In this document: piece after piece, positions 20,885 through 56,091 of the stretch
Layout: every line of letters begins with the position of its first letter
Position numbering within the stretch: the first letter of the stretch is position 1
Assembly (NCBI GenBank): GCA_016748015.1
Contig: JAAOMT010000590.1
Coordinates: forward strand, 879,667 to 943,666
From: Geosiphon pyriformis uo1
Lineage: Eukaryota > Fungi > Glomeromycota
DNA length: 64,000 nt
Direction: 5' to 3'
Position numbers and translations under genes: made by a program
The notes under the pieces: model-generated
What the model saw: the letters and a program-made list of their open reading frames with translations, nothing else
Database searches by the model: none
Told to the model about the DNA's origin: nothing

Positions 20885-20898
20885 TTATTTTCTCCTTT

Positions 20899-21528: not shown

Positions 21529-21585
21529 TTTCTATTGTCTTTTGTTGCATATACCATCTTTTTATATTCTTTGATTGTTCAATTT

Positions 21586-32300: not shown

Positions 32301-35300
32301 AAAGACCAAGGGCTTAATGATTCTTTGATCAGGCCATTGTTAAGCATTTGTTGGACTTCTTATTTGATAAGGTTGTTACCAGATGGGGGTATTCAGTAAG
32401 TTTGTTGTTTAATAGATCAAGTGTCTCTCATATCAATCTGATGCTTTATGATGTCAGTACATCCGAACTCATTTTTGCTGGCAAAGACATTAGCATACTG
32501 ATTCAGAAGGACTTTGAATTGCATTTGTTGCAAAGTACTTAAGTTTCCTAAATTTAATTTATTGATCTTCTCCAGTGTAAACAAGTAATTTTTTTTTGGC
32601 AAATTTTATACTTGTGAAGTGATATTGCAAAATAAAAATAGCTGTGCAAAATCTAGAATGGACTGGGGTTTTTCAGAATGTTGAATGTCTGGTGAAATGG
32701 AACCAATGAGAGTTCCTTTGGGGATTTCAATTACATTTTCTGTGGAATTGTGGATGGAGATTTTGAAGTGTTTATGGACTTTGGCCAGTAGGTATAAGTT
32801 AGCAACATTGGCTAGAGAACAGATTTCAGGATTGGCTTCAAATAACAGGGCTTGATCTTGGATCTTTCAATTTATCTTGAGGAGGTATTGTCGGTAAAAG
32901 GGAATGGAGATGACTGTGTTAATGTAGATAAGTTCTACCTGATTATTATCTTCTTCCATGAAGTTAATTGGTATGTTTCCTCTTTTACTTAATCCAAATC
33001 TGTTGATTCCTCAGGCAGTAAGGCCTAATTCTTTTTGGGTTGTTACCGGAGTTAATTGGGGTATTTTGACTAGGGGTAGGAAAATAGCTTAGGCAATCTT
33101 TTTTTGTGATTTTATTTTGTAGAGTCTGTCTGAATTGTTCTGTAGCATCATAATAATGTTTTCCGTGTAACCGGCATCAATGATTCTTCCTTTTATGTTG
33201 ATTTTTTTCTTGGCTAGACTAAATTGAAAGGCAACTTGTACTATTGTGTTAACAAGAATTTCTAATGCTATCTTAAGATCTATTTTTACAAGGGAATGTG
33301 GGGCTATAATTATAGATGATTGTCTGGGGTATCATAAGTTGAAACCAATATTGGTGTCATGCACTCTTTCAGAACAGATTTCTTCTTCATTGTCACTGTA
33401 CTATTTTAATTCTAATTCTTTAGATAGGTCAGGATATGCAAGATACTGCTCTGTTTCAATAGCTTCATTAGGCTTTTGAAATGACATGTCCTCAACTATT
33501 AACTTGACTTCTTCTTCAGATTCTGGTAGTTTGTCAATAAGGTGTAATATTTTTGACAGTGGATTGAACATGAGGTCACATTTGTCACAATACTGGAAAT
33601 GGCAAGGGATTAGGCAATGATCACATAATTTTATGTTTAGGTCAGCTAGTCTCTGTTCTTGTTCTTCTTGGGTTGGGGCCAATTCTTGGTAACAGTCCTG
33701 AAACACATCCGAGTCATCAGTAAAAAAATCTTCAATGATGTAATCAGGTTCTTTGTATTCGGGTACAAATGGGTTTTTTTTGATTTCTTGTATTTCATTA
33801 AGTGTGGCATCTTCAAATTTGGCACTTGCCATCCTCCATATTTTGTGTTCATTATGTAGATAGCCATCCAATCTATTGAGGACTTATCTCTGACTGGCTT
33901 CGATTGGGGTTCTTTTTTGTACCCAATCATTAATCAAGATAATATATTGACACGCTTTGTCACATGTCCCTACTCTGCCAGGGACATCATTCCAGAATCC
34001 TCTATCTGATAGAATCTCACTACAGGCAAGGCATAGTGTACTGTCCCATTTGCCTTGTCATTTCAGTCTTCCAAATCTTTCCATTACACATGGTCTGCAA
34101 TAGTATTTTGTGGCAGTTGGCCATTTTTCATAATTTCCTATACACGTGCCCATAGAGGATAACTTTTTCGCACAGTTGACACAGTTTAATTTCAAGGCTT
34201 GATACCATTAACTTTCTTGACTTGGGGCAGAATAGCCTGCAGGTGCCAATTGTAGTTTTTCTGTTTTTTTCTTTCCTTTTTCTTCCCAAGTTAGTAGTGG
34301 GGATAACTTTGTTTGGAAATTGTCTGCCCACAAAACTTGATAGATTTCTATGGTAGGTGGTGGTATTGTGTCTTCAAATTCAATTAATGGTTCCTCTGAG
34401 CTTTGGACTTGGAAGTGTTTACACATAGCTGAGACTTGGACATGTTGTTCATTAAAGGTAATCTATAATTCCTGTGTGTTCCAGTCAAGAATGGCATAGG
34501 CTTTGGCCAATTAGTTATTTCCAACAAAGGCTTGATATTGCATGGCTTCTATGACCAGGACTTTAATAGAAATCTGGATTCCATTGATCTCAAAGGGGAA
34601 ATTATCAATTTCTCCAATAAAAGTCTTGATATTGCCATCTGCAGTAATAATTTGGGCAGTTGTGGCACGATCTATTCAATAACCTAATTAATCTATGAGT
34701 TGTTTCATTATTATACTGCCTGCTGAACTGCTGTTTAGAATTAACTTAATATCTATGTTCCCAACTCTAGCATCAGTGTACAGAGCTGTGATTGGTTTAT
34801 CCTAATTAATGGCAGCTCCACTAAAAAGACTAGTGGTGTTTAGATGGTCAATGTTGAAGAGAAATATAACAACAAGGGTAGTGTCTTCGGTAATGATGGC
34901 GGATAGAATAGTATTGTTGATTTGATTTTGCTTTGAAGGAGTGGGAGTCTCTCCTACATCCTTCCCTTCTAAAGATTTAGAACTATAAAAATCCTGATTT
35001 TCAGTAAGACCAAGATATGAGGCTTGGTTAAAGTATCTGGTTGGTGCTGGTCAAGATGGGGCATTACTATGATTTAGGGATTGCAATGGTACACTGTTAA
35101 TCAGCCTTTGATTGTTGCTGAGATTTCTCCATCCTTGGTTGGAATTAATCACACAATGCTTAGATTGGCTATTAATAGGACTTTAGTACTGGGGTGCTGC
35201 TTGAGTCATTGGCTGTGAAGACTGGTAGTAGGTCTGAAGTGGTTGCTGGGTATACTGTATTTGTGGTAAGTATTGAGGTGGTTGATATTGAGGCGTAGGG

Positions 35301-38066
35301 TATTGGAATACTATGTTTTGAGGGTATTTCAGATGTTAATATTAATTTTCTTGGTTTTGGTCTATTACTTTCTTACAGCAGTCTTGGATAATGTGTTCAG
35401 GTTTCTGGCAATAGTAACAATTGTGGAAATTGGATCTCTAAGGTTGTTGTTGTTGCTGGTGATTCTGTTGTTGTTGGTATCTGGTGTTATTACTATCTCT
35501 TCGTTGTGGTGGTTGGTAGGGTCCTATGGTACTAGCTAAAAATCTCTCAATTTTCTGAGTTAATTTTTTATTTAATTGAGTTATTTTTGTGTTGATATTA
35601 GATGTTCTATTGATAGCCAGATTAATGGCTTGAGTATGGTTAGTCTCTTGTTCTGCTGACTCAAAGTCACAAGCAAAAGTAACTGCTTCTTATAGGTTTG
35701 TTGGGTGGTGGGGTCTTATGGATCAGAGGAAACTGCTTTTTAATCCTTTGACAAATTGGTTAAGGATTTGCACCACAGTGTAGTAATCCCTTTCAATGGG
35801 CTGGATTTGATGAAAAATTTGGTTGAATTGTCCAAGATAAGTGGTTACTGCTTTGTGGTTTTTTTGTTTTATGATACTAAACTGATTTTGTAATCTGATG
35901 AGAGTATTGGAGTCACAGAAGTATTGCAGAAAGACAAGTTTAAAGACAACAAAGTCAGTTGGTTTCTTTGCAAGGCTTTGATATTATGAGTCTGTAGTTC
36001 CAGTCAGAAAGAATGGCAATGATTAAATAGTCCTATCATTATCCTAATTGTTGGCAGTAATAACTTTCTCGGCTTCCACAATCCATATATATACGTTATC
36101 TTCTTCACTGGAGAATTTCTCTAATTTGGCAATATCTTGGTAAGCCATGATCTGGTGAGTAGGTAGAGGCTTACTGATTGATGCCAGAGGGTTTGGTGTT
36201 TGTGTGTTAGAGTGTTTTCCTGGTGCTAATTCTGATTGTTTTCCTTTGTTAATTTTCCCAATAGGCTGGAGGATAGCTGTTTTTTCAGAGAGAGTGGTTG
36301 ATGATTCAGTCAATGGTTGAGTTGGCAGTGGTTTCCATATCGATATATTTCTGTCTGTTTTGTTAAGTGTTGGAGAGAGATTTCCAAACAACAATTTGTA
36401 TTTTCCTAATGATTTGGTCTAACTATGTTGATTCCAAAGGTATAGATTTTCAGGAGTTTGTGGTGTTTTTAACTGAGTTTCTGGGGGTGGGTTGAATACA
36501 ATTCTACTTTGGGGTGTCTGATAGTATAATGGAGTTATTAGGAAGAGGAATCTTGGTTTCTTGTTGACCATGAACTTAGCTTGGACAGTTATGGAGTTGT
36601 TAGATTCATCTTCGTATTCCTCAGAGTCAAATTCCACTAGTTTTTGTACTTGAAAGAATCATTTTGCCATGTAATATTTAATGTCTGTATTAATTATGCA
36701 CAGAGTTTTAGCAATTGCTCAAGTGGTTGTGGCTGTTAAGTACCCTAATAAGCTTTGATAAATTTGTTCTCTCAGTCTTCCTGTGTCAGTTGCGCGGCCT
36801 AATAAGCAATCAATTTTTGCATTAATATAGTTACAAAAATTACTTTCTGCATAAGTGGTTTCTGCTGGTATTCCTAAGTTTTTTTGAAAGTATTGAAATA
36901 GTGCTCTTCTGTATGGGAAGTGATCCTTTTCTACTGTTCTAATAGTCGCCACTTTTGTGTATTTCTGGAGTGCTCTGTCTTTGTGAATTTATAACTTCAC
37001 AGGAAGCACCAAATGTTATGGGTAAACTTGGTGAGTAATGAAGATGGTAATGTTTGGTGCTTTCAATTATTGGTAATGCGTCTTCTACATAATTCTGTTG
37101 GCTTAGTCTCAATTATCAGTTTTTGAAGATCTATTTCTGGATGTGAATTTACCTGTTAAGTTCTTTGGTTATAAGGCACAGAGTTTGTCTTTCGTCAATT
37201 ACAATGTCTTTCGTAAATATAAGCTTTCTTCTCTGAGCTAATGAGTGCAGTCATTAGGGTCTGGTGGTGTCTTTTTGCCCTTCTGGTAAGCTAACAAGAT
37301 AATGTTAATATCTAAAACCTAGGGGGAGCCTCTCTTTTTTACCAGGCTATTACAAAGTCTATTTTCAGACAGTCAATTTTACTATGTTGTCATTTCACAA
37401 AAAAAAATAAGAAAAAAAGAAAAAAAAAGAAAAAAAAAAGATAAATTAGTATTATCAATCACCATAATCAAGAGTGATTGGTCCAAATCATTAATAGTTC
37501 AAGACAGTTATGCTAAGTGCATCTGTCTTAAAACGAAGATATGAAACAATGGTTAATTCATGTAAATCCCATACAGTTCGAGAACATGAATTTGTGATTC
37601 TGATTTCTTTGATAATTGATTTATTTTAGAAGATGAATATGAAAATATAATAAATAAGAAGGGGTGATGAATATTTGTTTTTTGTTTAGTAGTTTGTATT
37701 TATCTGTCCTGTTTTTCTATCTTTTACTACTACTTGCTTTTATACATTTTTTTGGTTTTACAGGATTGCTTCTGATTGTTTTGTTATTGCTAACTATTGC
37801 TTTGTTATTTCTGTTATTGCTTTGTTCTTCTACATTATTACTAGTTATCCTATGTTATAACATATTATCTAGTATTATTCTGTGTTATTCCATGTTGTAA
37901 CATGTTATCTTGTGCTATCCTAAGTTATAATATGTTATTCAATGTTATTGTGCACTATCCTAAGTTATAACACATTATTCAATATTATTGTATGCTATTC
38001 TGTGTTATGTCACATTCTGATCAAGTTTCTTCATAACTTCGGATTGGTTTTTCTATTCGGATAACA
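29342..38066 (-). mobile_element. Ty3/Gypsy LTR retrotransposon C (most divergent family), inserted in ORF3 of B; internally deleted
   Basis: LTRs at 29342-30395 and 37014-38066 (~1.05 kb); TSD CCAT/CTAT; PBS 36994-37011. Contains gag, protease, Cys-rich cassette (CDHCLIPCHFQYCDKC), dUTPase (GGIIDAGYTEN-like, ~33150-33190), RT, RNase H and the N-half of integrase. The integrase C-terminus and most of ORF3 are missing near 30450. Confidence 0.92.
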
Positions 38067-40024
38067 CTATATTTTGTCTCGTGGTTTTTTTCTGGTGTTT
38101 GTGTATTAGATAGTTTGTTGGTTAATTGTAATTTTTATCTCTTGTTGTTGTATCAGTTAAAAAAGTTGTTGTGCTAGTGAGTAAATGCTGTTAGTAATTT
38201 CCATTTTTTACTGTCTTTTGTCATGTATACCATGTCTTTATATACTCTTTTGATTGTTCAATTTTACATGTTTGGTTCAATAATTATAATTGGTTCTAGA
38301 TCTTGTGGAATCTCATTTGGTTTAACTAGTATTCCTTGTACTTCTAATTGTGAAATATTATTGGTAGATAATGATGCTATATAGTAATATTTTTCAGTCA
38401 ATTACTATATGCTGCTTTGGTTAAGGTTTTGTTGTTCAACTTTAATTTATAAGCTCTATTTCTAAGAATTTCTTCTATGTAAAATGGTTCATCCTATTTG
38501 GGGTTAAATTTTCCACTCTATTATTTTTCTGTTTTGGTACGATATAGAAGTATTTTGTCTCCAATTTTGAATTCAACTGGTTTCTCTGGTAGTTGGTTAT
38601 TGTGTCTTTCTTTTTGTTTTTCTTGTAACTTTTGGATGTTATCAGCTGCTCTTTGCCATGTGTTTTCTAGTGTCTCTATTAAGTCATATGTTTTTTTTAA
38701 CAATGTTCTTTGAAAGTTCTCTTTTGTTATTGGTTCTGTAGGATATGTCTTGACTTCTATTTTAATTGGTAGTGTTGCTGTTTTATCATATACTAATTCA
38801 AATAGTGTTGCTTGTGTAGTGTTTTGTTTCATTGTTTAATAAACAAATAATACTGATGGTATAATCAAGTCTCATTCATTCTGGTTTTCTTGGCTGATTT
38901 TGGCAATGGTTTCACACAGTGTTCTGTTAAACCTTTTGACTAACCCATTTGTTTATGGATAGTATAGTGATGATAATGATTTTTTATCCCAAATCTTTGA
39001 CTTAATTCTACCAATGTTCTATTTACAAAGTGAGTTTCTTGATCTAATAGTAGTTTTTTTGGACATTTATATCGACAAATTAAATCTTGATAAACAAATT
39101 TGGCAACGGATTCTGCATCTGCTCTTTAAATGGTTTTTGCTTCTGGCCATTGTTACAGGTAATTATTTGGTTGTTGAAGTAGATAACAAACCCATAACTT
39201 GGTACTCAAAGCTGTTAATGATGGAATCTGAAGGTGTATTATTTGAAGGTTTTGTCATGGAGTTCTTTGTATAATGGACAAAGATTCAGTAATAATAGTT
39301 TTATCTGTAGCTTCCTGAAACCACAGTTTTGTCAATTTTTTTCTCAGTGTAATGGTTGGTGTTTCTCCTGGTAAGCTAACCTCAATCGAGTATCCTACTC
39401 TTATTTCTGAGTCTTTTACTAATGCTATATTCTGACATTAGTACCCTGTACATTAATCCTCAATAGAGTTAGTAATATCAACAATTAAGACAAAAAAATA
39501 AAAGAAATTATATAAAAATAAGCCAAGACAATGAACATGTTAGTATTCCGTCAATAGCTGTGATCAAGAGCTATTGGTTCAGTGTGGTTATGTATCAATA
39601 ACTATCAATATAAAGTGTTGATAGTGGAGAGTGGATTTGGATGGTAAATGATTTATTTATTTATTATTTGTGAATGAAAGATTTTTAACTAACTGTCTTT
39701 TTTTCTACTTTTAATGCTACTGCTATATATATATGATTGATGTTCTATAAGATCACTTACATTTCTGAGTGATGTGCTATGATTTTTTGAGCAATGCTCA
39801 TATTGCTGAGCAATATGCTCTAATTTTCTAATATTGCTCCACATTGCTGAGCAATATGCCATGTTTTCTGATATTGCTCCATATTGTTGAGCAATGTGCC
39901 ATGATTTCTGATATTGCTCTATATTGCTGAGCAATATACTCACATATTAAATACTATTTTTTTATTGGTCTGCTATTTTCTATATCTGTTTTTTTTCTTT
40001 TATGAGTAACATTATCTCCTCCTT

Positions 40025-40660
40025 TTAATATTGAGCTCTATCAAAATCTTTGTTTTAAATTAATTCTAATACTTCTTTTTCAAGTATTGTTTGTTCGATT
40101 CTGTTCTTCACGTCTTCTACTTGTGTATTGTTTATTTTTTCTCATTGGTTAATAGTTATGGTTTCCATGTCAGAGTATAACAGTATTTTTGGATAGTTCT
40201 AAAATATATTGTGCAGTCAGTAAATTGTTCTTACATGTAGTGTTGAGTTTGTCTTTTTCCCAATAAATTCTTTGATTTGCTGTATTATGTTTTGGTTAAA
40301 TATCCTTTTGGATTTGTTAATATACAACTCTTGAATATTCAACTTTCGACCTAACTAGTAGTAACAGTATGATATTAGAAGTTGTTCTGTCCATTGTTTT
40401 CAATTCTCTTTTGTAAATTCTTTTGTTGGTGCCATAATAAATATTTTCCCAAAAGTGTTCTTTACTTTTTTTATTATGTTATCTGACCCATTTTTATTAT
40501 TCTTTGGTAACTGCTAATATGGCATATTTTTTGTCTTACTTTTGGTGTTTTGATAGCAAATTGTTTGGTTGTTAATGATAATTTTTAAGTCTAAAGGTTG
40601 TTAACTTAAGGCCTAGAATAATTGTTAAGCTATAGTGTAAATATGATCTGGTATTTTCAT
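40025..40660 (-). pseudogene. ORF3 (env-position accessory ORF) of element D, decayed
   Basis: MKIPDHIYTIA...W-QW-EQL-SYCYY-LGRKLNIQELYINKSKRIF...RTIY-LHN...TITINQ...ILEKEV...DFDRAQY*, homologous to ORF3 of A and B. Confidence 0.75.
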
Positions 40661-43600
40661 TTTCTTGGTTGCTTTTGTTGCATATACTGTGTCTTTATAT
40701 ACTCTTTTATTGTTTGATTTTATGTGTTTGGTCCAATAATTATGATTGGTTCCAAATCTTGTGGAATCTCATTTGGTTGGACTAGTATTTGTTGTACTCC
40801 TAATTGTGGAATGTTATTGATGGATGATGATGCTATTTGGTAATATGGTTTTAGTCAATCACTATGTGCTGCTTTGGCTAAGATTTTGTTGTCTCATCTT
40901 AATTTATAAGTTTCATTTCCAAGAATTTCTTTTATGTAAAATGGTCTATCCCATTTGGGGTCAAATTTTCTATTCTATTGTTTTTCCATTTTGGTATAAT
41001 GTAAAAGTACTTTGTCTCCAATCTTGAATTCAACTGGTTTGTCTAGTAGTTGATTATTATATCTTTTTTTTTGTTTTTTTTGTGACTTTTGGATATTATT
41101 AGCTGCTTTTTGTTGTCTGTTTTCCAGTGTTTTCATTAAGTTATATGTTCTTTTCAACAAGATTTCTTGGAAATTATCTTCTGTTATTGGTTCAGTTGGA
41201 TATGTATTGACTTTTATCTCAACTGGTAATGTTGCTGTTCTATCATATACCAATTCAAATGGTGTTGCTTGTGTGGTATCTTGCTTTATTGTCTAATAAG
41301 CAAATAATACTGATAGTATAAACAAATCTCATTCTTCTTGATTTTTTTGACTGATTTTGGCAATTGCTTCACACAATGTTTTATTAAATCTTTCAACTAA
41401 ACCATTTGTTTGTGGATGATATGGTGATGATACTGGTCTTTTGATTCCGAATCAGTGACTTAATTCCACTAATGTTCTGTTCACAAAGTGAGTTTCTTGA
41501 TCTAATAGTAGTTCTTTTGAACATTCATGTCGACAAATCAAATCTTGATAAACAAATTTGGCAATGAATTCTGCTTCTGCTCTTTGAATGGCTTTTGCTT
41601 TTGGCCATTTTGTGAGATAGTCCATGGCTACTACAATATATCTGTTGCCTCTGCTGGTAATTGTTAATAGTCCGACTAAATCAATTCTAATATAGTCAAA
41701 TGATTGTCCCATTTTGATTGGTCTTAATGGTTCACTGGGTTTTGTTCCACCTTTTTTTTAATAAGTATTACAATTCTAAACATATTAAATAATATCTGGA
41801 TACATTGATGGCCAATAGTATCTTTTTCTTGTTCTTTCCATAGTTGCTTCTTTATGAAAATGTCCTGCTGTTGAATCTGAATGCATGTTAAATAATATTG
41901 TCTCTTTCTCTGGTTCTGTGACAACTCTTATTGGTTGATCTGGATTTCTTTTGTTTTTCTGGTAAAGTATATTTTTATAATTGATAAAATATTTTGATTG
42001 TTGTTTAATATTATTTTGCTCATTTTGAGATAATTTCTCCTTGAACTGTTGAGTATTTATATAATGTTGTAGTTGTTGATATTTTTGTATATTCATCTTT
42101 TGTTATTTTTTTTTGTGTTAAGATGTTTTAGATTTGTCTCATTCACGACAAACCATTGGCATTTTCATTGTCTTTTCCCTTTTTATAATGTATAGTGTAA
42201 GTATATGGTGATAGTGCCATTTTCCATCTTAATTGTTTTCCATCTCCAAATTCCTGTTTATAAAGTGCTGTTAATCTCTTGTAATCTGTGTATACATCAA
42301 ACTTCTGGCTCAAGTATTCACTCCATTTCATGACTGCCCAATAAATTGCTAAGTGTTCTAATTCTGGTGTTCCATAATTTCTTTCAGCTGGAGTTAAACC
42401 TTGGCTGGCATATGTGACTGGATGTTCTCTTCCATCCAGTCTTCTTTGTAATAGTACTGCTTCCAATGCTTGGCCTGATGCATCGGTAGTAATAATGAAC
42501 AGTTTGTTGTAATCTGGATAGATCAGTACTGAAGCTTGTATAAGCTTTCTTCTTAGAATATCAAAAGCTTCTTGTTGTGCTTCTGTTTATTCATATTTCA
42601 CATTTTTGGTTTGGAAATAATTGAGTGGTTGGGCTATCTTGGAAAAGTTTTTGATGAAGTGTCAATAATAGCCTGCAAATTCCAAGAATGATTTTAACTC
42701 CATCATATTGGTTGATACTGAAAAGTTCTTGACTATCTCTATCTTTTCTAGATCTATTTTGATGCTGTCTTTGCTTACTATGTGCCCTAAAAAGTTTAAT
42801 TCTGTCTTGTCAAAGAAGCACTTATTGGCATTTAACTTTAGCCCTACTCATTGTAGCCTTTTGAACACTTGTTGTAAATGATACAAATGATTATTAAATG
42901 TTTTGGAGAACACATTGGTGTTGTCTAAATAAATGACTACTGATTTCCACAACAAGCCAGTATATACTATTTCTATTAGTCATTGGAATGTGGCTGGCAT
43001 ATTTGTTAAGCCAAATGGCATTACTTCAAATTCAAAATTTCCCTTCTATGTTGTGAATGCAGTTTTTTCTTTGTCTACTGAATCTATGGCTACTTGCCAA
43101 TAACCACTATCTAAATCCAATGTTGAGAACTATTTGTTTCTTCCAAAAACATCGAATAATTCCTGAATTTGTGGAGTTGAATAGCTGTCTCCATGTGTGA
43201 CTCTATTAAGCTTTCTATAGTCTACACAAAAGTGAATTTTCCCATTTTTTTTCCAGACAAGTACTACTGGTGATGACCATGAGCTCATTGATGGCTGAAT
43301 TAACCCATTGTCAAGCATCTGGTTGATTTCTTAATGAATGATTTCATGGCTGGTAGGTGGTACTCTGTATGCTCATTGTTTTATTGGCATAGCATCTCCA
43401 GTTTTGATCTGGTATTGGATGATGTCAGTTCTGCCGAATTTATTCTTGCTGGCGAAGATGTCATTAAACTTGTTGAGCAATATCTTCAGCTGCATGTGTT
43501 AAAGTGAGTTTAGATTCCCCATATTTATTTGTTCTAATTGTTCTGGTTGAAAGAAATAACATTTATTTCATTCATATATTGTTTGTGATATGATGTCAAC

Positions 43601-43954
43601 ATATCTACAAAGCTGTGGAAAGTCTGGAATGGGGTTTGGTAGTTGGTCCTCTATTTTATTAGTTAAATGTCCTATGATGGTTCCTTCTGGTATCTCCATA
43701 ATCTTTCCAGTGTTGTTGTAAATGGAAATTTTGATGCAGTTGTAATTCCTGGCTGGTGAGATTAATGAGTCCAATTTCTTTTGATTCACAACATGCTGTT
43801 TCTGTCTCAAAAATCTGGTTCTAATCCTTCATTTTTCTTTCTATAACTACCATATACTGATCATATGGTGGAATGGAAATGGTTGACTGGTGAAGATAAT
43901 TTCTTCCTTGTCAATAATCTTTTCTTCCACTATATTAACTGGTATATCTACTCT

Positions 43955-44347
43955 ATCTGTTGATCCAAATCCCTGTATCTTTCTTGCTGTTATTCCTAAT
44001 TCTTCTTTATTTCCTACTGATACTAACTAAGCTATTTTGACCAGAGGCAGAAATATTGCCTGCACTATTTTTTTGTTTGGCTCTATTACATAGGCCTTTT
44101 CTGAATTGTTTTGTAACATAGCAATAATATTTTCCACATATCCTGCATCAATTATTCCTCCTCTAATGTTAATTCCTCTTTTTGCTAGACTATTCTTAGA
44201 TGCTAGTTGAACTATTGTGGTTGTTAGAATTTCCAGTGCTATTTTTAGATCAATACAAGTGTGCAAATGTGGTTCTAATTTGATGGCATTTTTTCCAGAA
44301 TATTTTAGATCAAACTCTGCATTAGTATCATGTGCATGTTCTGGCAT
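43955..44347 (-). pseudogene. dUTPase domain of element D pol
   Basis: Motifs I-V in order: AHDTNAEFDL, LASKNSLAKRG, GGIIDAGY, KIVQAIF, ARKIQGFGST. Confidence 0.9.
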
Positions 44348-47300
44348 GATACCTTCATTATTGTCACTGAACTATTTTAGTTCCTGCTTCTTGGTAAGAT
44401 TAGGGAGTGTAATATATTGTTTATAGTTTGAATTAGAGTTTGAATCTGCATTAGAATTGTTGTCATTGTTATTGCTATTTTGAATAGAGCTAGAACCATT
44501 ATTTTCATCATCATCGTTGTTGGAGTTTGAATCAGGATTGAAAATTGATTCTAATTCTGATGTGCAGCTGTTGATTGGTTCTTCTTCTTCTGAGATTGTG
44601 TAGATCATGCAGATTGGTGGATTGTAAATGAGGTCACACTTATTACAATATTGAAAATCACATATAATTAAACAGTGGTTATATAATCAAGTATTTAGCT
44701 GTGCTAAATGCTCTTTCTGTTCTTCTCTGGTAAGTGCCAAGTTTTGGTAATGCTCATGGAAGTCTTCTGAGTTGGTTTCTATGTTGAGAAAGACATCTGA
44801 ATTTAGAATGAAGATGATATCAACCTGTTCAGACAGGTTGTTTTTAACTTCCAGAATTTCACTGGGTGTGGCTCTTTGGACTTTGGCATTCACCATTTGC
44901 CAGATCTCATCCTCGTCATGTGGATAGCCATCCAATTGGTTAATCACTCTATGCCAAATTGTTGTTATGGGCATGTCATGACTCACCCAGTTACTGATGA
45001 GAATCGTGTACTGGCACGAAGTGTTACATGTTTTTCCTTGACCAGAAATGTCATTCCACATCTCTTCATTAAGTAGCTGTTCACCACAAGTGAGACATGG
45101 TTTGTTGTTTCACTTGTCTTGGTGCTTTGAATATCTATAGCATTCGTGATAGCATGGTTTGCAGTAATAATGTGTTCACGTCCAGTGGTTTTCATCTGGT
45201 ATGATCCATGCTTCCATGGAAAAAAGTTTCTTTTCACAGTCTTTGCATTTAAGTGGAATAAATGGTGGCTGTAATAATGGCTGGCAAATGGAGTATGAGC
45301 TTGTCCATCCTTTGGTTGTGTTTTCTGTGAGTTCAATTTCTCCAAGTATGTTTTTTTCTTTTTCCTTCCCTTTCCTTTTTTCCTCCCAGCTTATTGTTGG
45401 TAGCAACTCACTTTGGCTGTCATCAGTCCAAGCATCGATGATGGTTCTTTAGGTATGTTCTTCTCTTTGTTTTCCTTTTTTATTGTCATTGTTGTTCCAG
45501 AAGAGTATTGGCAGTAGTTTATTGTGGTCGTTGTCAGTCTACGAAACTTGATAGGCTTCCCAGATAGGTTTTTTTTCTTCTTCCTCAAACTTGATGAGTG
45601 GTGCTGGTGTGTTGATAGTCTTGAAGTGGCTGTACATGGCTAGTATACATGTATGTCGACCATTTTGGCTAAGTTGAAGCTCTTGTATTGTCCAATCTAG
45701 TATGGCATTTGTTTTAGTAAGCCAGTCATTACCAACTAGTGCTTGGTATTAAGTGGCTTCCATCACCAAAACTTTGATAGGGACTATGATGCCATTGACT
45801 TCAAAAGGAAAGTCATCAATCTTGCCAATAAGAGTTTTGGTTGTTCCATCAGCTGTGATAATCCTTGTGCTGGCAGCTCTGTTAACTCAGCAACCTAATT
45901 GATCCATGAGTTGTTTGGTGATGATGCTGTCAGCTGATCCACTATTCAAGATCAGTTTGATATACTGACCATCGACTTTAGCATTAGTATACATCATGGT
46001 TATTGGTTTGGTGTCCAGAGTGGCTCTACTGAATAATGGAACTGATGTGATTTCCTCAAGTTTAAATGGAAATATGGTAGCAAGTGATTCGTCTTCAGTG
46101 CTGGCAGCTGGTGGAATGTTGCAAGTAAGTGGCTTTTGGTTGGTTTCTTGTTTGCTAGATGCAGCATCTTCTGAAGTAACCAAAAGACTTAAGTAGTTCT
46201 AGGAACTTGGGTTTTGATTATACCCAGTTTCTGAATTCTGCTGGCATAATCCTGATGATTAATTTGATGAACTGGAGATTGGTTAGTGAACCACTATTGC
46301 TGATCTCCAGTTTTGGATTACTTTGAATCTGAGATTTTCAGATGTTATTATAGATTGGTTTTAGGGCAGTGTTTGAATTGATTGTTGTGGTTGATAGATT
46401 ATTTGTGGCTGCAGTTGATATATTATAGGTGGCTGCAGTTGATATATTTAAGGTTGATATACTGGTGTTTGATAAATTGGCATTATTGGCAAGTAAGCGG
46501 ATTGATATTGATTTTGATTCTAGTAATAATTTGGAGTAAAGAACTGGTGATCGGGATTCTGGTATTAATTTTCCAATTGTGGGTTACTATAAGCACAGCA
46601 ATCGGCTCTAATGTGACTTTGTTTACCACAGTTGTGGCAGATTTGCATTTCTTGTTGCCACAGCTAATTTGTTGATGATGATGGATGCAACTGATTTTGG
46701 AAACAATTTGCATTTCCCTAATTATTATGTCATTGAAGAGACTGATAAATTGGGTGATTGTTAGTTAAGTATCCCTCTAATTTTTGATTAATGAAATCAC
46801 TGAATTGTTTCAGTTTAAAATCCAAGTCAGATAATTCATTCATTACTAAATTCACAGCTTGGGCATAGTTGGCTTTTAACTCAGCAGCTTCAAAATCTCT
46901 AGTATAAGTGACTGCAGTAAGAAGGTCTACTGGATATATTAGACATATTCATTAAAGAATGCTACTGCATAAGCCTCTGATGAACTGATTTAAGATTTGT
47001 GGTACTGTAAAGTAATCAGCTTAGATAGCTTGAATTTGGCACAGATTTCTGTGGAAGTGTCTCAAGTAAGTGGTGACTGCTTCTGTGTCTTCTTGCTTTA
47101 GGGTGGTGAAAGTACTTACCAGGTGGTTGATGCTGTTATTATCACTGAAATATCTTAGGAATTCTATTTTAAATACATTAAAATTTTGGGGTTTCTGGGC
47201 CAAGCTATAATACTATGAGTTGGTGGTATCTTTTAGGAAATATGGGATAACTTGCATTGTTTTTGCATCATCCCAATTATTTGTAATGATGGCTTTGGCA

Positions 47301-48034
47301 ATGTCATTGATCTATGCCTGGGCGTCATCCTCTTTACTGGTAAACTTCTCAAGTTTTGCAATTAGTGCCAAAGCTATTGGTGCAATCAGTTGCTGTTGTT
47401 GTATTAGTGGTTGAAGCTGTTGTTGCAGTTGTTGACCTGGTTGCTAGATAAGTTGCTGTAGTGGTGGCTGTTAAAAGGGTATTTGCTGTTGTTGAATTGG
47501 TTCAATAATCAGTTCAATTGGTGGCTGATCGATGACAATATTTGGAGGTAAGTTTTGTTAATTAATTAAGTTAAGGTTTCAGTTGTTCTGATTTGGTGGA
47601 GTTTTGATTTCTGGATTTTCTAAATTTTGATTTTGCTAAGTCTGAAAATTTGGAGTCCCAATATCTGGGTTTTCAGTAATTGAGTTCTGATAAGTGAATT
47701 TTTGATTTTCAGATTCTTCTTCTTTTTCTTTTTCTTCTTCTTCTTCTTGTTTTTTTTCTGATTCAGTTGGTTTCTACGGATCAGTAATTCTGAAATCTGG
47801 TTAAGGTGGTGGTGATTGAACTCCTGATGGTATTGGTGATCTCAATTTGAATCTCTCAAAGTATGTGCCATATGGTCCTAATAGATCTTCTTTCCTTTGT
47901 TTACTTTGGAATGGAAATTGTCCAAATGTTGATGTTGTGTTTAATATAGACATGCCTGCTAATGTGATATTGATGGTGCTTCCAGGAGTATAATAATATG
48001 ATGGATTTGTAGGTAATTTAATTTTGTGTTTCTT

Positions 48035-48412
48035 TTAAGTAGGTGGTTGGATCCATTGAAGTGTTACTGCCAGTGTTTGTAATTTTCCTTTGTCTTTACT
48101 GGCATAAGTGATTGGGTATCTTTGTTGTATGTGATGTTCAATTTTTTTATTAATCTCAGTGATGATAGATGCAAAATTATAATTTGTTGGTAGGCTGGTG
48201 TTTTGGATTAATTTGTGATAAAAAGTTTCTCTCACTGATTCAGTGTTTACTAGTGTTTTTAACAAATAGGCAATTCTTTCGTTGATGTAGAAATTAAAGG
48301 CTGATTCTGCTGATATCTGATTGTGGTTCAATCCCAAGTGTTGACAGTAATGTTGAAATAAGGATTTCACGAATTCTAAATGGTTTGCTTCTATACTTTC
48401 TGATTCTGCCAC
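48035..48412 (-). pseudogene. N-terminal extension of the gag ORF of element D (predicted helical domain upstream of the capsid)
   Basis: VAESESIEANHLEFVKSLFQHYCQHLGL...AESAFNFYINERI; homologues at 57499-57993 (A), ~55574-56030 (B) and 36719-36952 (C), each just downstream of the PBS. Confidence 0.75.
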
Positions 48413-50327
48413 TGTTGATTTATTTGTTGGTGCTGGTTCTCTGTAAGATTATACTTCACAAGGAGCACCAAATATTACAGGTAATTATTTGGTTGTTGGA
48501 GTAGATAATAAACCCATAACTTGGTACTTGAAGCTGTTGATGATGGAATCTAAAGATGTATTATTTAAAGGTTTTGTCATGAAGTTTTTTGTATAATAGA
48601 CAGAGATTCAGTGGTAATAGTTTTATCTGTAGCTTCCCGAAACCACACTTTCATCAATTTTTTTCTCAGCATGATGACCGGTGTTTCTTCTGGTAAGCTA
48701 ATCTCAATCAAGTGTCCTACCCTTATTTCTGGGTCTTTTACCAATGCTATATCCTGACATCAATACCCCATGCATTAATCCTTAATAGAGTTAGTAATAT
48801 CAACAATTAAGACAAGAAAATAAAAAAAATAACATAAAAATAAGTCAAGGCAATGAACACGTTAGTATCTCATCAATAGCCATAATCAAGAGCTATTGGT
48901 CCAGTGTAGTTATGTATCAATGACTATTAACATAAAGTGTTGATAGTGGAGAGTGGATTTGGATGGTAAATGATTTATTAATTTATTATTTGTGAATAGA
49001 AAATTTCTAACTAACTGCCTTTTTTTCTACTTTTAATGCTATTGCTATATATACATGATTGATGTTTTACAAGATTGCTCACATTCCCGAGTGATATGCT
49101 ATGATTTCTTGAGCAATGCTCACATTGCTGAGTGATGTGCTCTAATTTTCTAATATTGCTCTACATTGTTGAGCAATGTGTCATGTTTTCTGACATTGTT
49201 CCATATTGCTAAGCAATATGCCATGATTTCTGACATTGCTCCATATTGCTGAGCAATGTACTCACATGCTAAATACTATTTTCTTATTGGTCTGCTATTT
49301 TCTATATCTGTTTTTTTTTTATGAGTAACACCATTTTGTGAGATAATTCATGACTACTACAATATATTTGTTGCCTCTGCTGGTAATTGTTAATGGTCTA
49401 ACTAAATCAATTCTAATACATTTGAATAGTTGTCCTACTTTGATTGGTCTCAATGGTTTACTGGTTTTTGTTTCACCTTTTCTTTAACAAGCATTACAAT
49501 TTTTAATATATTGAATAATATTCAGATATATTGATGGCCAATAATATCTTTTTCTGGTTCTTTCTATGGTTGCTTCTTTATGAAAATGTTCTGTTGTTGA
49601 ATCTGAGTGCATGTTGAACAATATTGTCTTTTTCTCTGGTCTTGTAATTACTCTGGTTGGCTGATCTGGATTCTTTCTGTTTTTCTGGTAAAGTATATTT
49701 TGGTGATTGATAAAGTATTTTGATTGCTGTTTTATGTTGTTTTGTTCTTTTTGAGATAATTTCTCCTTAAACAATTGGGTATTTATATAATGTTAGAGTT
49801 GTTGGTATTTTTGTATATTCATGTTTTGTTATATTTTTTTTTTTTTTTGGGTTGAAATGTTTTTAGATTTGTCTTATTTGCAACAGACTGTTGGCATTTC
49901 TGTTTTCTTTTCCTTTTTTGTAATGCACTGTATAATTAAATAATGACAGTTCTATTTTCTATCTGGTATGGTGATTGTCTGCAAATTTTTGTTTTTGAAT
50001 TGAAGTCAATTCTTTGTGATTAGTATATACATTGAACTTTTGACTCAAGTATTCTTTCCACTTCATAACTGCCCAATAAATAGCTAAGTGTTCTAGTGCT
50101 GGACTTAAGCTTCTATTGGCATAAACTACTGGATGTTCTCTTCCATCCAGGCTTCTCTACAATAGTACTGCTTTCAATGTTTGACTAGATGCATTGATTG
50201 TAATTATGAATGGCTTGCTATGATCTGAATAAATCAGTACTGGGGCTTGAATAAGCTTTCTTTTTAATGTATCAAAAGCTTCTTGTTGAGTTTCAGTTCA
50301 TTCATATTTAGTGTTCTTTGTTTGGAG

Positions 50328-51113
50328 TCAGTGTAATGGTTGAGCTATTTTGGAAAAGTTTTTGATAAAATGGCAGTAGTATTCAGCAAATTCCAAGAAT
50401 GCTCTTAATTCTGTGAGATTATTTGGTATTGGAAAGTTTTTGACAATCTCAATCTTGTCTGGATCTGTTTTGATTCTGTTTTTGCTCATAACATGTCCCA
50501 AAAACTTGAGTTCAGTTTTTTCAAAGAAATATTTAATTGCATTTAGCTTTAATTCAGCTCTTTTTAGTCTTTTAAACACTTGTTGGAAATAATGCAGATG
50601 ATTATCAAATGTTTTTAAGAACATATTGATGTCATCCAAGTATACAACTACTAATTTCCATAATAGCTCAGTATAAACAATTTCCATAAGTTGCTGGAAA
50701 ATGGTTGAAGCATTCATTAAGCCAAATGACATAATCTCGAATTCAAAGTTCCTTTTCTGTGTTGTAAAAGTTGTTTTCTCTTTATCTTCTAGTTTCATGG
50801 CTATCTGCCAGTAATTATTGTCTAAGTTTAATGTTGAAAACCATTTTTTTTCTCTAAAAGCATTGAAAAGTTCTTGGATCTTTGGAGTTGAGTAGCTGTC
50901 TTCTTTTGTTACTTCATTCAATTTCTAGTAATCTATACAAAAGTGGATTTTCTCATTCTTCTTATAGACTAGTATTACTGGTGATGACCATGAACTCATT
51001 GATGGCTGAATTAGCCTGTTGTCAAGCATCCAATTGATTTTTTGACAAATGATCTCATGACTGGCTAGTAGTACTCTGTATGCTCTCTGTTTAATTGGCA
51101 TTGCATCTCTCAT
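50328..51113 (-). pseudogene. Reverse transcriptase of element B
   Basis: PIKQRAYRV, SSWSSPV, FCIDY, IMSFGLMNA, VVYLDDI, KFLGH. Confidence 0.93.
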
Positions 51114-51669
51114 CTTGATTTAATGTTGGATAATATCAGTTCTGCCAAATTTGTTTTTGCTGGCAAAGATATTGTTGAAATTGTTAAGTAACATTTTAAG
51201 CTGCATATGCTGTAGTAGATCTAAGTTTTCCATGTTCATTTGTTCCAATTGTTTTGGCTGAAGCAGATAACATTTTTTTCATCCATAGATTGTTTGTGAT
51301 GTGATATCTACATATTCACACAATTGTAGAAAATCTGAAATGGTGTCTGGCTGTTAATTTTTGATTTCAGTGGTTAAATGTTCAATGGTAGTTCTTTCCA
51401 GTATTTCTATGATTTCTCCTGTGTTGTTGTAAATAAGAATTTTTATGTGGCTGTGGTTCTTGGTTGGTATGTGTAAATTAACTAATCCAATTTTTTCTGA
51501 TTCATAAAGTGTTGCTTCTGCTTCAAAAATCTGTACCTAATCCTTTACTTCTCTTTCTATAACTACTATGTACTGGTCATATGGTAGAATAGAAATTGGT
51601 TGATGGGTAGAGATAATTTCTTTTTTGTCAACAATTTCTTTCTCTGCCATATTAACTAGTACATCTATT

Positions 51670-52064
51670 CTATCTGTGAATTTGAATCTCTGTATCCCTC
51701 TAGTAGTAATCTCTAATTCTTTTCTGTTTTTTACTGATACTAATTGAGCTACTTTTACCAGTGGCAAGAATATTGCCTGTGCTATTTTTTCATTTGGCTC
51801 TATAATATATGTTTTTTCTAAATCATTTTGTAGTATTGCAATGATATTTTCTACATATCTTGTGTCAATTATCCCTTCTCTAATGTTGATTTCCTTTTTT
51901 GCTAAACTATTCCTGGATGTTAGTTGAACTATTGTTATTGCTAGAATTTCCAGTGCTATTTTGAGATTAATACATATGTGTGAATATAGTTCTAATTTGA
52001 TGACATCTTTCCCTGAATATCTTAGATCAAATCCTGCATCAGTATTATGCATGCATTCTGGCAT
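51670..52064 (-). pseudogene. dUTPase domain of element B pol
   Basis: DAGFDL, TSRNSLAKK, GIIDTRY, EKIAQAIF, TTRGIQRF. Confidence 0.9.
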
Positions 52065-55000
52065 GATATCTTCATTATTATCACTAAACTATCTGAGTTC
52101 CTGCTCCTTGGAAAGATTAAAAAGTGCAATATATGTTTCAGGGTTTGAATTGGAGTTCGAATCATTATTAATTTTGTTGTTATATTGAGCAGAACTGGAA
52201 CTGTTGTTTTTATTATTGTCATTGTTGAAGTTTGAACTGGGATCAAAATCTGATTCTGATATGCAGCTGTTAATTGGTTCTTCCTCCTCTGAGATTGTGT
52301 AGATCATGCATGTTGGTGGATTGTAAATAAGATCACACTTATTACAATATTAAAAGTCACAGAGAATTAAGCAATATTGACATAATTGAATATTCAATTA
52401 CTCTAAATGCTGCTTTTGTTCTTCCCTAGTGGGTGCTAATCATTGGTAATGTTCGTGGAATTCTTTTGGATCATTTTCAATATTACCAAAGACATTAAAG
52501 ATAAGGACATATTTAAGTTCGGACAGTAAGAGTGGTTTATTCTTAATTTCTAATAACTCACTGGTAGTAGCACCTTTTGCTTTCGCACTCACCATTTTTT
52601 AGATTTTATGTTCATTGTGAGGATATCCTTCCAATCATCACAATGCTTTTTTCCAGATGTTGTCAATTGGAGTTTTTTTATGTATCCAGTTGTTTATCAA
52701 GATAATATACTGACATGTCTTGTTACACATTCTTTCTCGTCCAGGAATGTCATTCCATATTTCATCATCAAGCAGAATAGTTTCACATGTAAGACAAGAT
52801 TTGTTATCCCATTTTCTTTGTTTTTTTGGGCATTCAAACTGTTTTATAACACATAGGTAACAATAAAACTTTGTTGCAGTGAAGTATTTCTCATCATTAC
52901 CATAGCATGTACCTATTGACAACAATTTCTTGTTACAATTTACGCATACTAATTTTGGTCAGCAATAGTTAGATGGCAGTAGTGAAGAGTAAGCATATGG
53001 GCTGTAAGTGGTGTTTAGTGTTGGATCTTTTTCTTTTTCTTTCCCTTTTCCCTTATTGTTATCTTCTTTCTACTCCCAAGTTGTTAGTTTGTCTTAATTA
53101 TTGTTGGTTACTCAGACTTGGTCAGCATTCTAGGTAGGTTCTTTCTTTCATTTTCTTTTTCCCTTGTTGTCCCAAGAAAGTATCAGTAATAGCTCATTGT
53201 GATCTTCATCAGTTCAGAATACTTGATAGGCTTCTTAGGTAGGTTTCTCTTTTTCTTCCTCGAATTCTATCAGTAGTGCTGGTGGGTTGTTGGTTTTGAA
53301 GTGACCACACATAACTGGTACTTGCATGTGTTGGCCATTTTGGCTCAGTTGGAGCTCCTGCATCATCCAGTCAAGTATGGTGTTGGTTTTAGATAACCAG
53401 TCATTTCCTACTAATGCTTGATATTGAGTTGCTTTCATCATTAGGATTTTGATAGGAATGATGATGCCATTGACTTCAAAAAAAAAGTCATCAATTTTAC
53501 CAATAAGGGTTTTGGTTGCCCCATCAACAGTGATTATATGAGTGCTGGCAGTGTGATCAACTCAGTGACCTAATTAGTCCATAAGTTGTTTGGTAATAAT
53601 GTTGCCAGTAGATCTACTGTCTAAGATTAGTTTGATGGAGTGTTCATTCACTTTGGCATCAGTGTACATCATGGTTATGGGTTTGGTGTCCAATGTGGCT
53701 CCACTAAATAATGGAACTGAGATCATTTTTTCAAGTTCAAAGGGAAATATGGCAGCAAGAGTTTCATTTTTGGTGCTGGTTGCAGATGAAATATTATTGG
53801 TAAGTGTTAATTATTGGTTGGTTTTTAAATTATTGGGTTGGGTGTTTTCTGGAGTAACCAGAAAACTTAAATAGTGTTGGAAATTTGGGTTTTGGGTGTA
53901 CTTAGTTTCCAAATTTTGAGAATGTAATTTTGTTGATTGGTGAAAGGAGCTGGAGATTGGTTGGTAAACAACTATTGCCAATTTTCAATTTTGAGTGACT
54001 CTTGATCTAGAGTTTCTTAATGTTATTTGAGCTGAGTTTGATGGTAGTGTTTGAACTACAGATGTCTAATAAATTATTTGTGGCTGTGGTGGTTGATATA
54101 TTGCTGGTGGCTGTGGTTAATAAACTAAAAGTTGATATATGGATAGTTGATATATTGGCTGTTGTGTCATTGGCAGATAATTCAGTTGATATGGTGCTGA
54201 ATTGGGTTGGTAATTCAGAGTTGGAAACTGGCAATCAGGATTTCAATATTGATTTCCCAATTGTTGGTTATTTATCTTTAATCTGCAGTCAATTCTCAAA
54301 TATCTTTGTTTACCACAGTAGTGGCAAATATGTGTCTCTTGTGGCCACTGTTGATTGGTCAAGGATAATAGACACGACTGATTCTAGAAATGATTTGTGT
54401 TTTCTTGATTATTGTGTTGTTGTAAAGGTTGATAGATTACCTGATTGTTAGCTAAGTATTCTTCTAATTTTTGGTTTATAAAATCACTGAATTGTTTCAA
54501 CTTAGAATCCAATTCAGATGATTCATTCATTACTAGATTGATGGCTTGAGCATGATTAGTTTTAAGTTCAGCTGTTTCAAAGTCTCTGGCATTTGTAATA
54601 GTGGTTTGAAGATCTGCTAGATGCATTTGACATATGCATTGAAGGATGCTACTGCACAGTCCATGGATAAACTGATTTAGAATCTGAGGCACTGTAAAAT
54701 AGTCAGCTTGAATTGCTTGGATTTGGTGCAAATTCCTGTGGAAACATCTCAAGTAAGTAATAACTGCTTTTGTTTCTTCTTGTTTGATTGTGGTAAAGGT
54801 GTTGGCTAGGCAATTAATACTGTTGTTATTACTGAAATATTTCAAGAATGCAACTTTAAATTCTTAAAATGTTTAAGATTTGATGGCTAAACTTTAATAC
54901 TACAAGTTGGCAGTATTTTGTAAGAAATAAAAGATGGTTTGGAGTGCCCTGGCATTATTTTATCCATTGGCAGTAATGGCTTTTTCCACATCATTCAGCC

Positions 55001-56073
55001 ATACTTGTATGTTGTCCTCTTTTTCTGTGAATTTCTTAAGTTTGACTATTGGGATATAGACTATTGGATCTATGTTTGGTTGTTGTGGTGGTTGAAGTGA
55101 TAATTAAATTTGGGGTTGTGATGGTGGCTGTTGTTGTAGAACAACTAGTGATAAGTTAATGATAATTACTAGAGGTAAGTGTTGTTGATTATTAATATTG
55201 GAGTTTTAATTGTTCTAATTTTGCTGAATTTGAAAATTTGGAGTTTTGATTTCCAAATTTTCTAAATTTTGATCTTGCTAAGTTTAAAAGTTCAGGGTTT
55301 TAATGTCTGGGTTTTCCAGAATCGGGTTCTAATAAGTAAATTCTTGATTTTCAGCTTCTTCTTTTTTCTCCTCTTCTGATTCTGTTATCTTCCAGGAACT
55401 TGTGTTTCTGAAATTTGGTTGACATGGTGATGATTAGAATTTTGATGATGTTGGTGATCACAATTTAAATCTTTTAAAATAATTACCATAGGTTTTTAGT
55501 AATTCTGCTTTCTTTTATTTACTTTAAAATAGAAGTTGTCCAAATGTTAATGTCATATGTAATGTAAACACGTTTACTGAGAAGATATTAATGGCACTTC
55601 TTGGTATATAATAGTATAATGAATTGATTGGTAATTTGACTTGGGTTTTCTTTCAATGAGTGATTGTATCTGTTTTGGTGTTCCTGCTGGTGTTTGCAAT
55701 CTTTCTTTGCCTTTGTTTACATAGGTAATAGGGAATTGTTGTTGGGTGTATCTTTCAATGATTTGATTAATTTCTCTAATAATTGGTGCAAAACTGTAAT
55801 TTCTTGGTAGACTGATATGTTGAAACAATTCTGTATAGAAATTTTCTCTTGTGGATTTGATGTTAACTGTTCTTCCTAAGCAGTCTGTGATTTTATTGTT
55901 GACATAAAAGTTAAAAACTGATTCTGCTTGGAAGTGGTTATTGTTTAATTCTAATTGTTGGCTGTACTATTAAAACAAAGATTTGGCGAATCCTAAATGG
56001 TTTGTCCCTATAATTTCTATTTCTGCCACTTTTGAATGATTTGTTTGTTGGTACTGGTTTTCTGTAGAATTAT

Positions 56074-56091
56074 ACCTCACAGGGAGCACCA
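56074..56091 (-). promoter_or_regulatory. Primer-binding site of element B (best-preserved copy), complementary to a tRNA 3' end ...CCUCACAGGGAGCACCA
   Basis: The minus strand reads TGGTGCTCCCTGTGAGGT, 2 nt after the 5' LTR. The same motif follows the 5' LTRs of A, C and D. Confidence 0.85.

What the first reader, a model, noticed from the sequence alone, without database searches (positions are those of the whole stretch)
39151..49330. Ty3/Gypsy lineage with a retrovirus-like accessory set: dUTPase, Cys-rich cassette, pseudo-dUTPase and an env-position ORF
Seen: element D, and in pieces A, B and C, has the order N-extension, gag/CCHC, protease, Cys/Trp-rich cassette, Asn/Asp linker, dUTPase, beta-rich domain, RT, RNase H, integrase-GPF, then a separate ORF3 and the PPT. 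Four elements with different LTR families keep all these extras, so they were maintained while the lineage was active. Known: canonical Ty3/Gypsy elements have only gag-PR-RT-RH-IN, sometimes with a chromodomain, and dUTPase capture is rare and sporadic among fungal LTR elements. Inference: this is a distinct, possibly undescribed Metaviridae clade of early-diverging fungi with several accessory modules. It is the best candidate for a novel system in this window.
Basis: partly seen in the sequence, partly recalled or inferred. Interest (0 to 1): 0.8.

Follow-up and report, generated by a model that had tools for sequence, protein, structure and literature searches.

The report
Fungal Gypsy retrotransposon with twin dUTPases
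These are nested, mutation-riddled copies of a fungal Ty3/Gypsy jumping gene that carries a dUTPase, a likely dead second dUTPase also found in related animal elements, an unnamed cysteine-rich domain, an integrase set apart behind a stop codon, and a small extra gene that is likely not a viral envelope.

Summary
The anatomy is real. Element D (39151-49330, minus strand) has TG..CA LTRs, a 4-bp target duplication and one reading frame from Gag to RNase H with 48 decay stops. Copies A, B and C keep the same order. Every named relative is a Geosiphon pyriformis gene model; one unnamed ENA protein (P0272) has the same PR-to-RT order without stops. Three corrections. (1) The 'pseudo-dUTPase' is dUTPase-related, but not special to this lineage: it is homologous to the protease-RT spacer of animal Gypsy elements, whose profile alone retrieves only dUTPases from the PDB (3 of 3, best E 0.003). 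(2) ORF3 is a real, selected 210-residue gene with no membrane segment, so not env. (3) The Asn/Asp linker is not conserved, C lacks GPF and ORF3, and the LTRs of A, B and D are relatives. dUTPase between PR and RT with a non-env ORF3 is already described in rotifers, so this is a new variant of a known kind.

The parts
48475..49330 (-). 5' LTR of element D (TG..CA; 40-bp tandem repeats at its U3 end)
48455..48474 (-). primer-binding site beginning TGG, alike in A, B, C and D; the tRNA was not identified
47855..48436 (-). Gag N-terminal extension, no family match, weak codon-position signal
46790..47386 (-). Gag capsid domain (Retrotrans_gag)
46598..46639 (-). CCHC zinc knuckle
45665..46003 (-). 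aspartic protease, active-site Asp decayed in D
44600..45253 (-). Cys/Trp cassette: three conserved Cys clusters (likely zinc sites) around a confidently predicted helical core; no family or fold match
44420..44599 (-). Asn/Asp low-complexity linker (A, B, D only)
43958..44416 (-). dUTPase domain; motifs decayed in D, all five present in P0257 and P0272
43600..43957 (-). beta-rich dUTPase relic without catalytic motifs, homologous to the animal Gypsy PR-RT spacer; two compensating frameshifts in D near 43880 and 43774
42695..43402 (-). reverse transcriptase
42185..42586 (-). RNase H
42128..42130 (-). stop codon ending the gag-pol frame, at the same aligned place in A, B, C and D
40720..42096 (-). 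integrase ORF in the +1 frame with its own ATG (HHCC, core, decayed GPY/F region, no chromodomain hit)
40024..40660 (-). ORF3, about 210 codons, 10 stops in D, soluble and mostly helical, TATA-like motif about 40 bases upstream
40012..40026 (-). polypurine tract
39151..40011 (-). 3' LTR of element D
39147..39150 (.). target-site duplication CCAT (mate at 49331-49334), inside the integrase of element B
19355..58910 (-). outermost element A (19355-27986 and 56803-58910), split in gag by B
27987..56802 (-). element B (27987-29341, 38068-39150, 49331-56802), split by C in ORF3 and by D in integrase
29342..38067 (-). element C, the distant member, deleted from mid-integrase to the 3' LTR

Best explanation
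These are dead, nested copies of a Ty3/Gypsy LTR retrotransposon lineage that likely copied itself inside fungal cells without an envelope, using one Gag-to-RNase H polyprotein that holds a likely once-active dUTPase beside a likely dead, older dUTPase domain, with integrase and a small soluble ORF3 protein encoded in separate frames. Shown: the layout, the single frame, the stop after RNase H, selection on each module between subfamilies, sequence homology of the beta domain to animal spacers and of both to dUTPases. Inferred: (1) the dUTPase was cut from the polyprotein, formed trimers and kept uracil out of the cDNA in the particle; (2) the beta domain is the ancestral relic of this Gypsy branch, kept as a structural spacer, and the working dUTPase arrived or was kept separately; (3) integrase was made at lower level, most likely by a +1 frameshift near the stop (frame kept in 4 of 4, and fusion would explain packaging), otherwise by restart at its own ATG (3 of 4); (4) the Cys cassette binds zinc and nucleic acid or a host protein; (5) ORF3 is a separately transcribed intracellular regulator. 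All copies here were then killed by heavy C-to-T mutation.
For: Layout and nesting. Gag to RNase H in one frame also in B and C and PR to RT without stops in P0272. Selection: transversions at codon position 3 exceed position 2 in D versus C for the Cys cassette (2.2x and 6.5x), dUTPase (3.3x), RT (6.4x), integrase (3.0x), in B versus C for the beta domain (36 vs 17) and in A versus D for ORF3 (59 vs 28). dUTPase: all five motifs in P0257 and P0272; 53 PDB hits at E<=1e-8, all but the top unnamed row and one 'Pol polyprotein' and one CG-numbered row labelled dUTPase. Relic: lineage beta versus animal spacer 90.9%, E 1e-6, 82 columns, versus its own dUTPase 0.3%, E 0.2; joint profile retrieves 7 of 7 dUTPases at E<=10 among 177,635 PDB sequences (best 0.0067), animal-only profile 3 of 3 (best 0.0034). 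RT tree puts the five lineage rows in one clade (98) inside a 26-row group that holds all 17 spacer-bearing rows (84, weak). Integrase: same stop in 4 of 4, gaps 31, 40, 10 and 31 bases, all 1 mod 3; no other letter listed at the stop among 1601 contigs laid on the junction. ORF3: 151 relatives, hydropathy peak above 1.6 in 1 of 120.
Against: No intact copy and no whole genome were available, so the active form is inferred from decayed ones. The relic's E-values are modest (0.003-0.007), 1 of 26 members alone touches Pfam dUTPase (E 0.075) and it was not folded. The spacer rows come mostly from one pseudoscorpion genome plus a few frogs, and the tree has no named reference elements and is the quick search. 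No frameshift signal was identified; one-base indels occur in the RH-IN linker in some contigs, which fits a non-coding gap better than a frameshift; only contigs 31 or more bases from their end count at the stop. P0272 ends inside RT, so it cannot test the split. The roles of the Cys cassette and ORF3 rest on no match at all. The N-extension shows little selection (ratio 1.2-1.6).
Confidence: 0.72

Rival explanations
1. The element is a retrovirus-like (errantivirus-like) fungal virus and ORF3 is an envelope or cell-fusion protein that moved it between cells.
For: ORF3 sits between integrase and the purine tract, where env lies (PMC7879559); it is under selection; short membrane ORFs can replace env (10.1101/2025.03.14.642691, abstract).
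Against: About 210 residues, 0-2 cysteines in full-length forms, no hydrophobic segment in 119 of 120 relatives; no consistent Pfam, PDB or phage match; model mostly helical, low confidence.
Confidence: 0.05
2. The beta domain is a recent tandem duplicate of the neighbouring dUTPase, private to this lineage (or the pair forms a herpes-type two-domain enzyme).
For: It lies directly after the dUTPase in 25 of 25 proteins with both and is dUTPase-related.
Against: It is far closer to animal spacers that have no dUTPase next to them (90.9%) than to the adjacent dUTPase (0.3%); the first domain already has all five motifs.
Confidence: 0.12
3. The stop between RNase H and integrase is damage, not design: either repeated C-to-T decay at one codon with later indels, or one inherited defect in copies moved by helper elements.
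For: C-to-T change is extreme here (369 transitions to 12 transversions in four LTR pairs); the linker is an unstable A-run; A, B and D are close kin.
Against: The distant copy C (about 64% identical) has the same stop and the same +1 offset; integrase stayed under selection between D and C; no variant letter at the stop.
Confidence: 0.15
4. The extras are a chimera of a few copies or an assembly artefact.
For: The locus is a four-deep nest and many gene models are scrambled.
Against: 420 representatives carry the Cys cassette, the order is kept, the D-B junction is bridged by a contig with no difference, and each element has its own LTR pair.
Confidence: 0.02

Closest known systems
Bdelloid rotifer Juno, Vesta and TelKA LTR retrotransposons (PMC5408684, abstract and passages)
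   Same: dUTPase between PR and RT, an extra zinc knuckle upstream of RT in Juno, GPY/F, no chromodomain, non-env ORF3 including 210-230-residue forms, one family without a gag-pol frameshift.
   Different: Here the Cys cassette is about 220 residues and precedes the dUTPase, a dUTPase relic follows it, integrase is behind a stop, and ORF3 has no membrane or enzyme match. Kinship was not tested (no sequences at hand).
Fungal dUTPase-carrying Gypsy elements: PosPlaTy3-5 of Postia, Phanerochaete elements, Tmt1 of Tuber (PMC2864245, passages)
   Same: Fungal host; dUTPase between PR and RT in PosPlaTy3-5; some have additional ORFs of unknown function.
   Different: That survey concerns chromodomain-type elements with dUTPase at varying places; no chromodomain hit here, and the order is fixed across hundreds of copies.
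Animal Ty3/Gypsy elements with a PR-RT spacer (Cordylochernes, frog and fish gene models); 'dUTPase-like' domain of planarian Burro (PMC6431247, passages) and of the PNMA-ancestor metavirus (PMC11011659, passages)
   Same: Nearest RTs found (41-45% identity); homologous beta-rich spacer at the same place; a dUTPase(-like) domain has been noted in single lineages.
   Different: The animal proteins examined have no motif-bearing dUTPase, Cys cassette or ORF3 match; their integrase is annotated in the same protein as RT.
Lentiviral and betaretroviral dUTPases (PMC4531489, passages)
   Same: Polyprotein-embedded five-motif dUTPase; the lentiviral structures 1duc and 1f7d rank 2nd and 4th, and 1duc aligns without a gap from motif II to IV; a truncated inactive dUTPase is kept in BIV.
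   Different: Scores are near-tied with cellular enzymes, so origin is open; no env; different position in pol.

Membership tests
Metaviridae (Ty3/Gypsy) | two LTRs, PBS after the 5' LTR, PPT before the 3' LTR | tested here: met
   definition PMC7879559
Metaviridae (Ty3/Gypsy) | gag with capsid and nucleocapsid domains | tested here: met
   Retrotrans_gag 3e-7; CCHC in D
Metaviridae (Ty3/Gypsy) | domain order PR, RT, RNase H, integrase | tested here: met
Metaviridae (Ty3/Gypsy) | integrase made as part of the Pol polyprotein | tested here: inconclusive
   integrase present and downstream but behind a stop in the +1 frame in 4 of 4; fusion by frameshift cannot be tested here
Metaviridae (Ty3/Gypsy) | RT groups with Ty3/Gypsy RTs | tested here: met
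   nearest hits and tree; no named reference elements in the tree
Errantivirus / env-bearing elements | Env with surface and transmembrane domains after integrase | tested here: not met
   210 residues, hydropathy peak above 1.6 in 1 of 120; no env family hit
MDG1-group sORF2 (FAST-like) elements | short transmembrane accessory protein | tested here: not met
   ORF3 has no membrane segment; other short ORFs were not searched for
Chromoviruses | chromodomain at the integrase C-terminus | tested here: not met
   no chromodomain family at E<=1 in the D integrase frame; decayed copy
Trimeric dUTPase (first domain) | five conserved motifs | tested here: met
   P0257 and P0272 have all five; decayed in window copies
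Trimeric dUTPase (first domain) | dUTP hydrolysis | not testable with these tools
   needs an enzyme assay
dUTPase superfamily (beta domain) | sequence homology to dUTPases | tested here: met
   7 of 7 and 3 of 3 PDB hits are dUTPases, best E 0.0067 and 0.0034
dUTPase superfamily (beta domain) | catalytic motifs I-V | tested here: not met
   only one Asn is invariant in alignments A5 and A7; motifs absent in the alignments
dUTPase superfamily (beta domain) | dUTPase fold by structure | not tested
   both fold jobs went to ORF3 and the Cys cassette
LIM / GATA / RING-type zinc fingers (Cys cassette) | structural match to a known finger | tested here: inconclusive
   Foldseek top rows are GATA and LIM fingers but E>=0.58; best Z 4.7
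Bdelloid Juno/Vesta/TelKA clades | RT groups with these clades | not tested

The most novel reading that the evidence does not exclude
A dead dUTPase domain is an ancestral, overlooked part of Pol in a large branch of Ty3/Gypsy elements spanning animals and fungi, and this fungal lineage has both that relic and a working dUTPase, while moving translational control from the gag-pol junction to the RNase H-integrase junction: a single Gag-to-RNase H frame with integrase made by a +1 shift or a restart.
Probability: 0.45. Interest if true: 0.72.

Novelty: new variant of a known kind. Interest (0 to 1): 0.52.

Why it matters
dUTPases in LTR elements are read as rare independent captures (PMC2864245, PMC5408684). 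If the unnamed PR-RT spacer of many animal Gypsy elements is a dUTPase relic, capture is older and wider than thought, and that is directly testable by folding. A separate integrase frame would be an unusual way to set protein ratios in a single-frame gag-pol element. Practically, hundreds of 'hypothetical protein' models of Geosiphon pyriformis are fragments of this lineage, in a genome reported as 41.2% LTR (PMC11952901).

Tried and rejected
No whole genome is held, so no genome-wide count or search for intact copies. The ESM Atlas gave no answer for any query. Metagenome and viral contig scans found no relative; these need exact short peptides and are no evidence of absence. The RT search ranked multi-copy animal gene models first and gave no fungal RT. 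ORF3: model pLDDT 53.5, pTM 0.31, best Z 4.1 over one helix, Pfam scattered, PDB best E 0.44, phage tblastn none. Cys cassette: model pLDDT 72, no match at E<=0.001 in PDB or BFVD, best Z 4.7, PDB sequence best E 2.1. N-extension: no Pfam, PHROG or PDB match (the PDB profile also held gag and PR columns). One search read the wrong frame and was repeated. Direct profile comparison of the beta domain with the lineage's own dUTPase was not significant (12%, E 0.002 with the wider profile). No RNA holder listed. No tRNA gene in the window to identify the primer. The Geosiphon genome paper was not held; it, its supplements, Repbase and GyDB could describe this lineage and were not seen. Literature searches listed no paper describing this lineage, a Gypsy-wide dUTPase relic, or an integrase split at this place; only listings were seen for most rows.
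Full report
1. What is there. Self-comparison of the window and the junctions show a nest on the minus strand: A (19355-58910) is split in gag by B (27987-56802), and B is split by C (29342-38067) in ORF3 and by D (39151-49330) in integrase. D has LTRs of 88.9% identity and an exact 4-bp duplication; a contig of run X1 crosses the D-B junction with no difference. D reads in one frame from 48499 to 42131 with 48 stops, with Pfam hits for gag, protease, dUTPase, RT and RNase H in that order. B and C keep gag to RNase H in one frame too. All copies are dead. The four LTR pairs differ by 369 transitions and 12 transversions.

2. Where it comes from. All 13 long proteins matching the Cys cassette-to-beta region, the 120 listed of 151 ORF3 relatives and 19 of 20 looked-up representatives (20 of the 150 listed, of 420 hits) are Geosiphon pyriformis gene models. 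The window is therefore likely from that fungus or a close relative (inference). The twentieth, P0272, is an unnamed ENA protein on a 19-kb contig: 1064 residues without stops, PR, Cys cassette, dUTPase, beta domain and the first half of RT, about 40% identical to the Geosiphon forms. So the plan is older than the copies in this window, but I found no named host outside one species; the 270 weaker hits were not seen.

3. Are the extras real? The order is kept in 83/83, 98/99, 43/43, 25/25 and 5/5 protein pairs (most of these proteins were selected for carrying the cassette, and one, P0015, has PR and dUTPase without it). Counting transversions only, to escape the C-to-T decay, third codon positions changed more than second in the cassette, dUTPase, beta domain, ORF3 and the core enzymes, but hardly in the N-extension and not in the Asn/Asp linker. 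That linker is absent from C, P0272 and P0257. C lacks GPF and ORF3 by deletion. The LTRs of A, B and D are 71-79% alike, so the window holds three kin and one distant member.

4. dUTPase and its relic. The first domain is a five-motif dUTPase. The beta domain has no Pfam hit and does not match the neighbouring dUTPase. It does match the unnamed stretch between PR and RT in the animal Gypsy proteins that carry the nearest RTs: 92 of 120 of those proteins have such a spacer (profile built from 11 of them), and lineage versus animal profiles align at 90.9% over 82 columns. A profile of 26 such domains, with no true dUTPase in it, retrieves 7 PDB sequences at E<=10 out of 177,635, all dUTPases; the 17 animal rows alone retrieve 3, all dUTPases. 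Catalytic motifs are absent. In a quick RT tree of 58 rows (213 RT domains collapsed at 80% identity, plus five lineage rows) the lineage is one clade (98) inside a weakly supported group (84) holding all 17 spacer-bearing rows. It was not folded.

5. Integrase is set apart. After RNase H the same stop stands in A, B, C and D; integrase begins 31, 40, 10 and 31 bases on, always in the +1 frame, with ATG in A, B and D. Among 1601 contigs laid on this junction no other letter is listed at the stop, while one-base indels occur in the A-rich gap. I favour a +1 frameshift near the stop over a restart, because the offset is kept and fusion would solve packaging; no shift signal was identified, so this is inference. 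That single-frame elements need some way to lower integrase is recalled, not from a call.

6. ORF3 and the Cys cassette. ORF3 is about 210 residues, ends at the purine tract, has a TATA-like motif about 40 bases before its ATG in B and D and a weaker one in A, and has no membrane segment in 119 of 120 relatives. Its model is low-confidence and helical with no match. It is not env; an intracellular regulator is the likeliest role, untested. The cassette has three conserved cysteine clusters around a confident helical core with no significant match; zinc binding is inferred from the pattern.

7. What is known. The ICTV profile (PMC7879559, whole text) gives the family definition. dUTPase between PR and RT is described in Postia, and dUTPase in Phanerochaete and Tuber elements (PMC2864245, passages), in rotifer elements with an extra knuckle and non-env ORF3 (PMC5408684, abstract and passages), as 'dUTPase-like' in Burro (PMC6431247, passages) and in the PNMA-ancestor metavirus (PMC11011659, passages). 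The AMF transposon survey reports 41.2% LTR in G. pyriformis and never mentions dUTPase (PMC11952901, passages); PMC3248453 and PMC13524379 do not mention it either (passages). PMC2774666, PMC2238898 and PMC4531489 were seen as passages, and 10.1101/2025.03.14.642691 as abstract and outline. The Geosiphon genome paper was not held, and no supplements were read; these, Repbase and GyDB may already hold the lineage. Nine searches listed no description of it.

8. Verdict. A real, selected, apparently undescribed architecture within Ty3/Gypsy: a new variant of a known kind, not a retrovirus-like system. Its most interesting parts are the dUTPase relic shared with animal elements and the separate integrase frame. 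Interest 0.52.

Noticed in passing
LTR pairs of A, B, C, D (e.g. 39151-40011 / 48475-49330): 369 transitions against 12 transversions; C/T differences at 78% of CpG, 41% of CpC, 26% of CpA and 21% of CpT sites; CpG observed/expected 0.07-0.2 in the elements against 0.95 in the host gene. A strong methylation-driven or RIP-like process; LTR dating by total divergence (0.12-0.14) would overstate ages, since transversions are only 0.1-0.6%.
   Followed up: partly
3713-10036 (-): A 2107-codon open host frame, kinesin-like by recalled motifs at its start followed by a long coiled coil; untouched by the decay.
   Followed up: no
about 19480-20171: A 690-bp insertion in the 3' LTR of A, bounded by TG..CA-like ends and with 12-bp tandem repeats, likely a solo LTR of another family.
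   Followed up: partly
39761-39941, 49074-49257, 30141-30345, 37843-38016, 20697-20811: 40-bp tandem repeats near the U3 end of the LTRs, with different units in D, C and A.
   Followed up: no
flanks of A, B, C, D: Target duplications are 4 bp: exact in A and D, one transition apart in C, two in B.
   Followed up: partly
P0003-P0015, P0136-P0405: Hundreds of Geosiphon pyriformis 'hypothetical protein' models are spliced-together fragments of this retrotransposon lineage.
   Followed up: partly
42040-42220 and 38000-50500: Run X1 lays 17,636 contigs on 12.5 kb at 95% likeness, most deeply over integrase: a very large family.
   Followed up: no
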